Positions 9,301 through 63,940 of a DNA stretch of 64,000 bases are shown one piece after another. The position numbers were made by a program, and so were the translations under genes. Each line of letters opens with the position of its first letter. Position 1 is the stretch's first letter. This stretch comes from Chiloscyllium plagiosum (lineage: Eukaryota): positions 68,722,746-68,786,745 of the forward strand of contig NC_057718.1 of NCBI RefSeq assembly GCF_004010195.1, read 5' to 3'. Below the pieces are notes generated by a model. It had not been told where the DNA came from. It was given only the letters and a program-made list of their open reading frames with translations, and searched no databases.

Positions 9301-12300
9301 TTTCTCTGTATTTTCAATTCCATTTTGTATTCCTTTAATTCAGTTTCCCTTTTCTTATCTTTCTCTAGTCTTTCTTTAGTTCTTTCTGCCATCTTCAGTT
9401 TCTTTGTTCTCTCTTTTGCTTGGTTGCCTTAACAGAAACTGAGTATCACCTGATTCTGATGTTTCACTACCTAGAGTTCCTGGTCTCTCTTGTATTTCCT
9501 CTAAACCATGCTAATGCCTCAATTGTCTCTGCCTGACAAAGCTAGAATGGCAATGCTACCTCCAGTGTATCATCCAATTCAAATACCCTGGTCTTTGACA
9601 GTTATCTCAAGACTACTGGGACAACTCTGCCATATACAGGAAATCCTTTGCAATTTTCTCTGCCATTGACCAGGTTCCCCTTGGGAGACTGGTTAGCAAG
9701 GTTATCTCAAGGACTACAGGGAGAACTAGCCATTTGGTACAGAACTGGCTCAAAGGTAGAAGACAGAGGGTGGTGGTGAGGCGTTGTTTTTCAAACTGGG
9801 AGGCCTGTGACCAGTGAAGTGCCACAAGGATCGGTATATAAATGATTTTGGATGCGAGCATAAGAGGTATAGTTAGTAAGTTTGCAGATGATACCAAAAT
9901 TGGAGGTGTCGTGGACATCGAAGAATGTTATTTCAGATTACAACAGGACCTTGATCAATAGGGCCAATGGGCTAAGGAGTGGCAGATGGAGTTTAATTCG
10001 GATAAATGCAAGGTGCTGCATTTTGGGAAAGCAAATCTTAGCAGGACTTATACACTTAATGGTAAAGTTCTAGGGAGTGTTGCTGAACAAAGAGACCCTG
10101 GAGTGCAGGTTCATAGCTCCTTGGAAGTGGAGTCACAGGTAGATAGGATAGAGAAGATGATGTTTAGTATGTTTTCATATATTGGTCAGAGCATTGAGTA
10201 TAGGAGTTGGGAGGCCATGTTGTGGCTATACAGGACATTGGTTAGGCCACTGTTGGAGTATTGTGTGCAGTTCTGGCCTCCCTCCTACAGGAAGGAAGTT
10301 GTGAAATGTGAAAAGGTTCAGAAAAGATTTACGAGGATGTTGCCAGGGTTGGAGCTATAGGGAGCAGCTGAATAGGCTGGGGCTGTATTCCCTGGAGTGT
10401 CTTAAGCTGATGGTTATAAACCTTATAGAGGTTTGTAAAATCTTGATGTCCATGGTCAGAGTAAATATGTGAGGTCTTTTTGCTGGGGTGGAGGAGTCCA
10501 GAAGTAGAGGGCATAGGTTTAGGGTGAGAGGGAAAAGATTTAAAAGGGACTAAGGGACAACTTTTTCATGCAGACTGTGGTGTGTGGAATGAGGAAGTGG
10601 TGGAGGCTGGTACAATTACAAAATTTGAAAGGCACCTGGATGGGTATATGAATAGGAAGGGTTTAGAGGGGTATGAGGAGAAAGTGAGGTCTGCAGATGC
10701 TGGAGATCAGAGCTGAAAATGTGTTGCTGGAAAAGCGCAGCAGGTCAGGCAGCATCCAGGGAACAGGAGAATCGACGTTTCGGGCATAAGCCCTTCTTCA
10801 GGAATTAGAGGGGTATGAGCCATGTGCTGGCAAATGGGACTAAATTAATTTATGATACCTGGTCGGCTTGGGTGAGTTGGACCGAAGGGTCTGTTTCCGT
10901 GCTTTACACCTCTATGACTCTGACTAGGTTTCTTAACAAGAATGATTATTTATTGCAAACAAATAGATTCTAATGGCAAACAATTATGAACACAAATGAG
11001 GACAATACAGCACAGAACATGCTCTTCGGTCCTCCAAGCCTGCACTGATACATTTTGCCCTTCCATACTAAAACTGTCTTCACTTACAGGATCTACATCC
11101 CTCTGTTCTGTTCCTATTCATATATTTGTCCAGGTGCTGCTTGAATGTTGTTATTGTCTGTTTCCATCACAGCCTCTGGCAGTATGTTCTGTCAAAAAGC
11201 TAGTCCTTTCTCAAAGTTACTATGCCCTTGAGTTTTATTTTGGGGGGGGGGTAATTGGTCTAGCTCCAACAAGAGTGGGTTTGAATAGATTATTGGAACC
11301 TTTTTTGTTTACTCCTAACAGATAATGCTTCCTGATGAAGGTCTTTTGCCCGAAACATCAATTTTCCTGCATCTCGGATGCTGCCTGACCTGTGCTTTTC
11401 CAGCACCACACTCTTGATTCTGATCTCCAGTATCTGCAATCCTCACTTTCGCCTAGATAATGCCTCCGGCCTAACTCAGTGTAATCAAGGGGGCATGGCC
11501 AGCTGTCTAGCTGCGCAGGTCAGTTCAGTTCGGGGGTTAGTTGAGTCAGGGCTACAGCTAAAACTGGAAGCTGTCTCCCTCCAACCTTTCTGCACCTACC
11601 CTGTCAAGTTCTCCAAGAATCTTCAGTTTTGTTCTTCTATGTTCCAGTAAGAACTGGCCCAATCTATTCAACCTCTCTTGATAAGACAGTTCTTCTGTAA
11701 GTGGTACCAGCCTTAGTTGAGTTGATGTGGCAACATACATTTTATCATGCATGGTGTAGCTTGGAGCTGTAGATAGTGGTGGTAGAGACACCAATTACTT
11801 TCCATCATCAGAATATTGTTCCATTCCTTTCTATCTCATGTACTTATCTAATTTTCCCTTTACTGTTTCTGTATTATTTGCTTTGATTACTGCATGTGGT
11901 AGATAATTCAACATACTTATCATTCTTCAGGTGTGGCACCTTGTCTAGTATCTTTATTTTTTAAAAAATATAGTATGGTGTTTAAAAACTGCATAGTAAT
12001 TCAATAATGGTGCAAAGTTCAGTGGAAGTTTAACACAATGGCCTTTCAATTCTATCCCTGTAGCAGTGAAATCATTACCCTTTTTTTGTTTCTTTTTAGT
12101 TGCTTTATGACCTTTGACATTTTTGTAATTTGTGTATCTGTGCCCCTTTGTTCCACTCTCTTTTTTTCATAAAGTATGTGGTTGTATTGTTCTTCCATCA
12201 ACACTTCACACACATCTGTATTGAAATTCATGTGCCAATAATATTACCTGTTCTGTTTTTATTAAGGGCGTCTCATAATTTTGTCCCAGTCTTGTTTCGT

Positions 12301-63055: not shown

Positions 63056-63940
63056 GAGCTGAGATGTCACCTTTTTAAATAAAATCTTAAGCTATCTTGG
63101 GAATGTGACACTTGAAAGAAGTCCTGAAATTTAAATATTAATGAATTGAAATCTGCAATCCATTCTAAAAGATGAAAGACTTAACAGAAATTTGGATTTG
63201 TTCAATATGCACATTCTCCGTGTCAGCGCGGGTCTCCTCCAGATGCTCCGGTTTCCTCCCACAGTCCAAAGATGTGCAGCTCAGGTGAGTCAGCCATGCT
63301 AAATGGCCCATAATGATAGGTGCATTAGGGGCAGGTTACTCTTCGGAGGGTCGGTGTGGACTGGTTGGGAAGAAAGGCCTGTTTCCACACTATAGGGAAT
63401 CTGATCTAATCTAATCTAATATCATATCAGTTGCATGACACTGTGATCTTATGCTATAAATTCTGTGACTTATGATCCTTCCCCACTAACTTCCTGACGA
63501 AGGAGCAGTGCTCCGAAACCCAGTACTTCCAAATAAATCGTGGGCTGAAGGGCCTGTTCTGTGCTGTACTGTTCTATGTTCTATGTTCTAAATCTGTTGG
63601 ACTATAATCTGGTATTGGGAGAAAGTGAGGACTGCAGATGCTGGAGATCAGAGTCGAACGTGTGCTGCTGGAAAAGCACAGCAGGTCAGGCAGCATCCAG
63701 GAACAGGAGAATCAACATTTCGGGCATAAGCCCTTCATCGGAAGAGCAGGAGAATCGATGTTTTGGGCATAAGCCCTTCATCAGGAATTATTGGGTTTAT
63801 GCCCGAAAATGTCGATTCTCCTGCTCCTCAGATGCTGCCTGATCTGCTGTGCTTTTTCAGCACCACATTCTCGCCTATAACCTGGTATTGTGTGATTTTT
63901 AATTTTGTCCACCCCAGTCCAACACCAGCACCTCCATCGT
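63056..63940 (+). mobile_element. Longer family B Penelope terminal region containing three nested insertions (HE1 63208-63420; CR1 tail 63540-63588; family A 63618-63874)
   Basis: Hammerhead-like CTGACGA-a-ggagc agt gctcc-GAAA at 63494-63518; family B tail ctggtattgtgtgatttttaa...ccccagtccaacacc; TSDs taaatc and ctataa(t/c)ctggtattg. Confidence 0.8.

What the first reader, a model, noticed from the sequence alone, without database searches (positions are those of the whole stretch)
10678..63874. Dispersed family of ~126-nt hammerhead-bearing Penelope-derived mini-elements (family A)
Seen: about eleven copies or fragments of one unit carrying CTGA(T/A)GA-A-stem II-GAAAC-(G/A)TC. Two standalone copies (10678-10804 minus, 11329-11454 plus) are 127 and 126 nt, each flanked by its own TSD (15 and 9 bp), and both begin at TTC directly 5' of the CUGA box. 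The same unit forms the 3' terminus of GIY-YIG-coding Penelope fragments (32153, 51686, 62051). Established: Penelope-like elements carry minimal hammerheads with a vestigial palindromic stem III that can cleave as dimers. Inference: the terminal unit spreads as a discrete, ribozyme-bounded, non-autonomous element in this shark lineage, instead of being random 5' truncation.
Basis: partly seen in the sequence, partly recalled or inferred. Interest (0 to 1): 0.78.

Follow-up and report, generated by a model that had tools for sequence, protein, structure and literature searches.

The report
Shark Penelope stubs marking RNA start
These short repeats are separately inserted copies of the 90-130-base hammerhead-bearing end module of a very abundant Penelope-like jumping gene in a shark; they are likely abortive by-products of the full element rather than a self-copying mini-element, and their sharp shared front edge likely marks where the element's RNA begins.

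Summary
In detail: 17 arms in the window, both TSDs confirmed. In 1.21 Mb of this genome there are 201 core arms. 89 of 180 scorable 5' ends fall within -12..+5 of the CUGA box, none at -37..-13, and only 8 near the cleavage site (+28). The edge is therefore sharp but not set by ribozyme cleavage: it is the front of helix I, on an invariant A in an initiator-like motif. The unit is both the 5' leader and the 3' end of a Neptune/Nematis-type Penelope-like element. About half the arms sit in head-to-head pairs inside one TSD, and 34 of 37 pairs join one tailed and one tail-less arm. Short and long copies share the same variants, so I found no separate mini-element lineage. Best reading (0.6): internally primed cDNA runs off the RNA 5' end, a 'strong-stop' product, and integrates singly or from both target strands. 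The layout is known; I did not find the sharp edge, its position or the arm asymmetry quantified in eight literature searches. This scan has reported the same thing before on other DNA, including this genome (89 notes). RNA 5' ends and self-cleavage are untested.

The parts
10663..10677 (.). TSD, left copy (15 bp exact)
10678..10804 (-). Solo unit with tail, youngest subfamily; only window arm with a fully intact hammerhead
10770..10805 (-). Minimal type I hammerhead: helix I (4 bp with a U-U), CUGAAGA core, extra A, 4-bp helix II, GAAA, C-G palindromic helix III, GUC; predicted cut between 10774 and 10773; A(-4) at 10805
   Evidence: motif architecture from PMC4209133; cut site inferred
10805..10819 (.). 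TSD, right copy
11320..11328 (.). TSD, left copy (9 bp exact)
11329..11454 (+). Solo unit with tail; helix II and III decayed
11455..11463 (.). TSD, right copy
28642..28898 (.). Head-to-head pair: tailed arm 28666-28791 (-) and tail-less arm 28792-28885 (+), inside a 14-bp exact TSD (28642-28655 / 28885-28898)
32151..32567 (+). 5'-truncated PLE 3' end: C-terminal piece of EN, 3' UTR, unit with tail (32435-32561)
46649..46886 (.). Older, diverged head-to-head pair (46649-46736 -, 46738-46886 +); no TSD found
47737..47950 (.). Head-to-head pair: tailed arm 47737-47869 (-), tail-less arm 47871-47950 (+); no TSD found
51682..55396 (-). Longest PLE copy in the window: RT-side piece (about 55396-54478), interrupted by other repeats, EN reading frame 52005-52610 with CX4CX2C linker and GIY-YIG motif, 3' UTR, tail-less unit 51682-51779
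57989..58128 (+). Solo tailed unit starting at about +7 (57998-58116), 14-bp TSD with 1 mismatch (57989-58002 / 58115-58128)
62051..62598 (-). 5'-truncated PLE 3' end with tail-less unit (62051-62146)
63602..63890 (.). Three-arm insertion: tailed arm 63615-63743 (-), 52-nt arm 63736-63787 (-), tail-less arm 63785-63881 (+); 16-bp TSD with 1 mismatch (63602-63617 / 63875-63890)
41045..41161 (-). Older related unit (low score)
21848..21928 (+). Older related fragment (low score)

Best explanation
The units are separately inserted copies of the terminal module of an abundant endonuclease-bearing Penelope-like element, and they are likely 'strong-stop' products: reverse transcription likely starts inside the element's RNA, about 92-99 or 127-131 bases downstream of the hammerhead core, and likely runs off the RNA's 5' end at the front of the hammerhead. 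Shown: the module lies both before the ORF start and after the 3' UTR; it has two 3' ends; its 5' ends pile up at about A(-4); it occurs singly with a TSD or as head-to-head pairs inside one TSD, with one tailed and one tail-less arm. Inferred: A(-4) is the transcription start, an initiator overlapping the first base of helix I. Inferred: pairs arise when both nicked target strands prime cDNA, one from each start site on the same template sequence, and the two cDNA ends are then joined by microhomology with templated filler. Inferred: the hammerhead is carried along uncut and does not set the boundary. The stubs would be dead ends, because they lack the ORF-side segment that the studied PLE protein needs.
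For: Sharp edge: 89 of 180 uncensored ends in -12..+5, 0 in -37..-13, 8 in +24..+33; per-base stop rate 0.073 at -5..-1 against 0.003-0.006 at +10..+60 and 0-0.003 at -15..-100. A simulated fixed junction at -4 gives a similar upstream tail. The edge appears in all 5 subfamily groups although their upstream sequences differ. A(-4) is invariant in 58 of 58 long copies, with an initiator-like YYANWYY in 48 of 58 against 1.6% per position nearby. The module precedes the ORF (ATG at +164, L123). TSDs: 17 of 28 solos against 11 of 273 shuffled; 28 of 42 pairs against 20 of 248. Pairs: 34 of 37 are tailed plus tail-less, p 6e-8. The arms agree at polymorphic sites (5.7% discordant; random pairs 37%). 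The tail-less arm reaches the edge more often than the tailed arm (27 against 15 of 34, p 0.006), the reverse of what fold-back from the tailed arm predicts. Junctions: 14 of 37 overlap, and 8 of 10 fillers of 5 nt or more match local sequence. Extra units joined at the edge (h012/h007, h114/h109, L111, window 63736) suggest template jumps at an RNA end. Precedent: Anolis PAc primes internally at two sites that bound the tail, extends both strands, needs ORF-side RNA, and inserts normally with a dead hammerhead (PMC11167929). D. virilis Penelope has an internal promoter (PMC2377424).
Against: No RNA 5' end was observed: the one raw-read run that covered the element showed no place where many molecules begin, and 97% of laid reads ran on into unrelated sequence. 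There is no excess of a cap-type extra G at -5 (G 5, A 9, C 11, T 5 of 30). The initiator match is confounded, because the same ATTC is helix I and the upstream region is pyrimidine-rich. Copies that bear the ORF start show only a weak peak: 8 of 20 stop at the edge, 12 of 20 continue seamlessly into 3'-UTR sequence, and many stop between +34 and +160. This needs an added step (read-through templates or strand transfer). The ratio of short to long copies differs among subfamilies (p 0.0009). PAc is a Poseidon-clade element, so the mechanism is borrowed across clades.
Confidence: 0.6

Rival explanations
1. Structure-set stop. The RNA extends upstream, but the polymerase stalls or the intermediate is trimmed or joined at the front of the folded (or protein-bound) hammerhead.
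For: The edge coincides exactly with the outer pair of helix I (A-4 with U31, 40 of 40 long copies). No cap-G signature. 59 of 151 arms that reach +5 pass the edge.
Against: A polymerase moving 3' to 5' on RNA should stall on entering a structure (+20..+31), not after leaving it, and no peak lies there (reasoning). Helix I is weak: the hammerhead fold scores -5.2 against -8.2 kcal/mol for an alternative fold.
Confidence: 0.18
2. Discrete non-autonomous element. Short master loci are transcribed and copied in trans by the PLE protein, like a SINE.
For: Short arms number roughly 2.8e5 by extrapolation. The short:long ratio varies by subfamily (2:14 up to about 3:1). Short arms have a short nearest neighbour in 65 of 87 cases against 61% expected. 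Rare loci with unit plus about 80 nt of ORF-side sequence exist and could be non-coding templates.
Against: No diagnostic variant (0 of 8 sites). Clustering interleaves short and long copies. 5' ends vary copy by copy. Only 2 of 201 arms keep ORF-side sequence. Pairs vary in both arm lengths, so they are not copies of a fixed palindrome.
Confidence: 0.12
3. Retrozyme-like element. Hammerhead cleavage and circularisation define unit-length RNAs that are reinserted.
For: Helices II and I covary across subfamilies (G-C to A-U; AGTC/GACT in older families). Core positions are less variable than others (2.8% vs 4.5% in short copies, 1.3% vs 3.6% in long). Retrozymes derived from PLE pLTRs are known (bioRxiv 2026.07.22.740005).
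Against: No 5'-end peak at +28 (3 ends at +27..+29). Copies are colinear with the leader, not permuted at the cut. Only 18 of 286 arms have a same-strand neighbour within 400 nt, and I saw no arrays among them. The core signal is confounded by variation among masters.
Confidence: 0.05
4. Solo pLTRs left by recombination between the two terminal copies of full-length insertions.
For: The unit is terminally redundant in full-length copies. Solo pLTRs were ascribed to recombination or deletion in a rotifer (PMC3846280).
Against: ORF-bearing copies have scattered 5' ends (8 at the edge against 12 in +6..+51 and 3 in -37..-13), unlike the sample (89, 39, 0). This rival does not explain the asymmetric pairs or filler junctions.
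Confidence: 0.05

Closest known systems
EN+ Penelope-like element insertions with pLTR, inverted 5'-truncated copy and 30-40-bp tail (PMC8557442, PMC3846280, PMC8969392)
   Same: Terminal repeat with hammerhead, partial tandems, inverted arm, tail present at only one end, TSDs, occasional solo pLTRs
   Different: Here most arms are ORF-less stubs at very high density (166 core arms per Mb), with a hard 5' edge at one position; the passages I read describe 5' truncation without such a peak
Minimal hammerheads of metazoan PLEs (PMC4209133)
   Same: Short helix I, extra nucleotide before helix II, palindromic vestigial helix III; mostly single motifs attributed to truncated PLEs, some pairs on opposite strands 100-700 bp apart
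   Different: Helix II is 4 bp in family A; the pairs here abut directly; the sections I read name no shark
PAc, Poseidon element of Anolis (PMC11167929)
   Same: Two 3' ends bounding a tail, at a similar distance from the hammerhead; hammerhead at the 5' leader; no sign that cleavage sets ends
   Different: This element has the CX2-5CxxC linker (Neptune/Nematis type) and its ATG lies downstream of the unit (+164), not inside the hammerhead
Animal non-LTR retrozymes (PMC7229834; bioRxiv 10.64898/2026.07.22.740005)
   Same: Non-coding, type I hammerhead, related to PLE pLTRs, dispersed monomers occur
   Different: Retrozymes are head-to-tail repeats, with canonical hammerheads and circular RNAs in the cases tested; these stubs are solo or head-to-head with a minimal motif
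Retroviral minus-strand strong-stop DNA (recalled, textbook)
   Same: Short cDNA primed near the RNA 5' end that covers a terminally redundant segment
   Different: Analogy only: target-primed, no tRNA primer, and the short product integrates

Membership tests
EN+ Penelope-like element | Single ORF with RT and C-terminal GIY-YIG endonuclease | tested here: met
   GIY-YIG Pfam hit at 52005-52610; relatives of a 514-aa ORF piece carry PF00078 and PF01541
EN+ Penelope-like element | pLTR: same repeat at both ends, direct or inverted | tested here: met
   Unit before the ORF start and after the 3' UTR; inverted arms
EN+ Penelope-like element | 30-40-bp tail at only one end | tested here: met
   3' ends cluster at model positions 92-100 and 129-132; 34 of 37 pairs asymmetric
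Neptune/Nematis clades | CX2-5CxxC linker upstream of GIY-YIG | tested here: met
   C-X4-C-X2-C seen in the frame at 52002-52610; definition from PMC8557442
Neptune/Nematis clades | Placement in an RT phylogeny | not tested
   No tree built; no reference set held
Minimal type I hammerhead | CUGANGA / GAAA / NUH core, helix II, short helix I, palindromic helix III | tested here: met
   110 of 172 arms parsed; helix II and I covariation. No Rfam match
Minimal type I hammerhead | Self-cleavage (dimer or protein-assisted) | not testable with these tools
   Bench assay needed
Non-LTR retrozyme | Head-to-tail tandem units with a hammerhead in each | tested here: not met
   118 of 286 arms head-to-head, 18 with a same-strand neighbour
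Non-LTR retrozyme | Ends defined by the cleavage site | tested here: not met
   3 ends at +27..+29 of 180
Non-LTR retrozyme | Circular RNA intermediate | not testable with these tools
   Only polyA single-cell reads and contigs were on hand
Self-propagating non-autonomous element (SINE-like) | Own lineage with diagnostic variants | tested here: not met
   0 of 8 sites in the youngest subfamily, 35 arms; small sample; weak neighbour excess
Self-propagating non-autonomous element (SINE-like) | Retains the RNA element recognised by the partner protein | tested here: inconclusive
   2 of 201 arms continue into ORF-side sequence; the need for it is known only for PAc

The most novel reading that the evidence does not exclude
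Penelope-like elements replicate by a target-primed version of retroviral strong-stop and strand transfer. The RT starts at the 5' copy of a terminally redundant, hammerhead-bearing module (the only copy next to the protein-binding ORF start), runs off the RNA 5' end, and either integrates as a stub or switches to the 3' copy and continues. Repeated switching would give the partial tandems (pLTRs), and priming on both strands would give the inverted arm and one-sided tail. The shark stubs would be several hundred thousand fossil strong-stop intermediates: about 60% (89 of 151) of first passes and 40% (8 of 20) of second passes stop at the same edge.
Probability: 0.25. Interest if true: 0.75.

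Novelty: new variant of a known kind. Interest (0 to 1): 0.42.

Why it matters
How Penelope-like elements make their pseudo-LTRs, inverted ends and one-sided tails is still open (PMC8557442, PMC11167929), as is the role of their hammerhead. This family offers an estimated several hundred thousand natural insertion products whose ends give precise predictions: RNA start at A(-4), two priming sites used on opposite target strands, no role for cleavage in setting the ends. These can be tested by CAGE and by the existing in vitro assay. It also warns annotators that these palindromes and solos can be mistaken for MITEs, microRNA hairpins (they drew sub-threshold Rfam miRNA matches) or SINEs. As a repeat class the layout is already described.

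Tried and rejected
Rfam scan: no hammerhead family matched at E<=1; five sub-threshold miRNA matches fell on two palindromes. DNA search of the own genome with the unit returned nothing because common words are skipped, so I sampled 21 blocks instead. No RNA holder was listed on record. Laying polyA single-cell reads: one run gave 1,081 reads with no start or end pile-up, the other gave none; this says nothing for or against a start site. Laying four contig runs on 10450-11650 to find empty alleles was swamped by repeats; the joints came from other copies of the flanking repeat and I drew nothing from them. Cap-G test negative. A two-template origin of paired arms was not shown: arms agree as well as neutral decay allows. 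The cluster of 5' ends at -100..-130 is probably an alignment break in C-rich sequence and was not used. Searches crashed part-way and one search had an offset error; replace them (the base counts printed before the crash are used). 85 of 286 hits scoring under 0.6 bits per position were dropped as older families before the end counts; 21 of 201 core arms were censored. No tree was built; the lineage test rests on clustering, nearest neighbours and site counts.
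Full report
Coordinates. Positions in the unit are counted from the C of CUGA (0). The conserved ATTC is -4..-1, and the predicted scissile bond lies between +27 and +28.

Observation. The two standalone copies and their TSDs are as stated. A profile built from 55 near-complete copies finds 17 arms in the window, 13 of them core. 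Four window loci are head-to-head structures, and two of these lie inside one TSD. Only the copy at 10678-10804 keeps every hammerhead feature. Only the copy ending at 51682 has the GIY-YIG motif. Rfam has no hammerhead match.

Sample. I read 1,264,000 bases of the own genome: the window, 200 kb beside it, and 20 blocks of 50 kb on large contigs; 1,208,579 bases are not withheld. The profile gave 286 hits and 0 on reversed sequence. 201 hits scoring 0.6 bits per position or more were kept as core. That is 166 per Mb, or roughly 5.9e5 core arms and 2.8e5 short arms genome-wide. This is an extrapolation from hand-picked blocks.

The parent. Long copies show the unit before the ORF, with the ATG at +164, and again after the 3' UTR. 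The endonuclease is C-terminal and preceded by a C-X4-C-X2-C motif, the linker given for the Neptune and Nematis clades (PMC8557442, passages). The nearest named proteins are from Chiloscyllium punctatum (83-88%), Rhincodon, Stegostoma and rays, so the host is a shark. The hammerhead is real at family level. Helix II covaries (G-C to A-U in 5 of 95 at one pair), older families have a 5-bp helix II and a fully paired helix I, and helix III is the palindromic CG eroded by CpG decay. Core positions vary less than others, which I read as selection on master elements; the test is confounded by variation among masters.

5' ends. Each arm was aligned to real long copies of the closest subfamily. Of 180 uncensored ends, 89 lie in -12..+5 (mode -4/-3), 0 in -37..-13, 21 in +6..+23, 8 in +24..+33 and 10 in +34..+51. 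The per-base stop rate is 0.073 at -5..-1, against 0.003-0.006 at +10..+60 and about 0.001-0.002 far upstream. A simulated fixed junction at -4 yields a similar upstream tail, though a thinner one (50 of 145 beyond -4, against 26 of 41 observed), so the edge is either -4 with microhomology or a narrow cluster. The peak is not an artefact of missing parents: 17 of 28 isolated solos have a TSD (control 11 of 273), and in pairs the neighbour is the inverted arm itself. It is A(-4), invariant in 58 of 58 long copies, which is both the outer base of helix I and the A of an initiator-like motif (48 of 58; background 1.6%).

3' ends and pairs. 3' ends cluster at model positions 92-100 and 129-132. 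118 of 286 arms are head-to-head. Of 42 core pairs, 28 have an outer TSD (control 20 of 248), and 34 of the 37 with two intact ends join a tailed and a tail-less arm (p 6e-8). The arms carry the same subfamily variants (22 of 387 discordant; monomorphic sites 6.8%; random pairs 37%), so they come from the same template sequence. Their 5' ends differ; 14 of 37 junctions overlap and 8 of 10 longer fillers match local sequence. Fold-back from the tailed arm predicts that the tailed arm reaches the edge, but the tail-less arm does so more often (27 against 15 of 34). This favours two priming events.

Is there a mini-element lineage? The edge occurs in all five subfamily groups. Clustering interleaves short and long copies (output partly cut). 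In the youngest subfamily none of 8 variable sites separates them (35 arms). Against my reading: the short-to-long ratio differs among subfamilies (p 0.0009), and short arms have short nearest neighbours a little more often than expected (65 of 87). Only 2 of 201 arms run on into ORF-side sequence.

Copies that bear the ORF start. Of the 150 best matches listed I examined 70: the first 30 and 40 of the next 43. Their 5' ends are scattered at about 0.005-0.006 per base from +160 to +34. Of 20 that reach +5, 8 stop at the edge (0.022 per base) and 12 continue into 3'-UTR sequence, none beyond -174. The edge therefore acts on long cDNAs too, but weakly. Seamless continuation needs either read-through templates from tandem loci or a switch to the RNA's 3' copy of the unit. 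The generally high stop rate in the leader is unexplained.

RNA. No run on record as RNA was listed as a holder. One polyA single-cell run laid 1,081 reads, nearly all from copies embedded in other transcripts, with no start pile-up. There is no cap-type extra G at -5 (5 of 30). The RNA start is therefore inferred, not seen.

Mechanism. PAc primes internally at two sites that bound the tail, cleaves and extends both target strands, needs the first 172 nt of its ORF on the template, and inserts normally when its hammerhead is inactivated; no RNA-seq reads ended at its cleavage site (PMC11167929, parts 1-2 of 4 read). D. virilis Penelope uses an internal promoter with an initiator (PMC2377424, passages). 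Applied here, priming at the 5' copy of the unit gives a 96-135-nt cDNA that ends at the RNA start. One-strand priming gives a solo, and two-strand priming gives an asymmetric palindrome. I put this at 0.6, a structural stop at 0.18, a self-propagating element at 0.12, a retrozyme at 0.05 and recombination at 0.05.

Comparison with print. Inverted truncated copies, one-sided tails and solo pLTRs are described (PMC8557442, PMC3846280, PMC8969392; passages). Dispersed single and opposite-strand minimal hammerheads from truncated PLEs are described (PMC4209133, parts 1-2 of 4). PLE-derived retrozymes, including one chondrichthyan genome, are described (bioRxiv 10.64898/2026.07.22.740005, parts 1-3 of 5; its supplements were not seen and may list this family; PMC7229834, passages). 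PMC6155905 (passages) added nothing on sharks. Eight searches showed no paper on this shark family, on a 5'-end peak at the hammerhead's front, or on strong-stop or twin priming in PLEs. Most subscription papers and Repbase were not searched. The dimer-cleavage paper of Luense et al. 2017 is recalled, not read.

Earlier notes of this scan. A sequence look-up found none. A word look-up found 89 notes in at least 16 genomes with much the same reading, including two on this genome among the eight shown. These are not independent support. My run-off reading and the counts came before or apart from them. One note mentioned a capped-RNA, two-template signature, which I tested and did not find.

Verdict. 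Real and non-random, a known class and layout, most likely by-products of the autonomous element. The value lies in the testable mechanism. Interest 0.42.

Noticed in passing
window 63494-63518 (+) and 35539-35563 (-): A second hammerhead-like motif family (CUGA core, GGAGC/GCUCC-type helix II, GAAA) unrelated to family A by blast
   Followed up: no
window 54138-54458 and many other sites (e.g. 14506-14822, 43609-43921): A ~320-nt repeat at very high density, inserted inside the long PLE copy; probably the shark HE1-type SINE (name recalled, not tested)
   Followed up: no
L171-L240 (ORF-start-bearing copies): 5' ends stop at about 0.5-0.6% per base throughout the leader (+160 to +34), far above the rate seen upstream of 3' units; unexplained (ragged RNA ends or a protein roadblock)
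   Followed up: partly
G000 C1 block (L025) h012/h007, C10 block (L074) h114/h109, L111, L114, window 63736-63787: Units joined head-to-tail at the 5' edge, some with about 70-80 nt of ORF-side sequence between them; look like template jumps and may mark the 3' end of short templates
   Followed up: partly
core arms with A(-4), sample-wide: The base at -5 is A in 9 of 30 short arms but in 1 of 58 long copies; possibly a non-templated addition or junction microhomology
   Followed up: partly
window 41045-41161, 21848-21928 and about 85 low-scoring hits in the sample: Older related families with a 5-bp helix II and U at position 17, some also in head-to-head pairs, so the same product was likely made over a long period
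   Followed up: partly
window 10663-10819: The first solo copy sits inside another very abundant repeat (probably a CR1/L2-type LINE 3' region; not tested)
   Followed up: no
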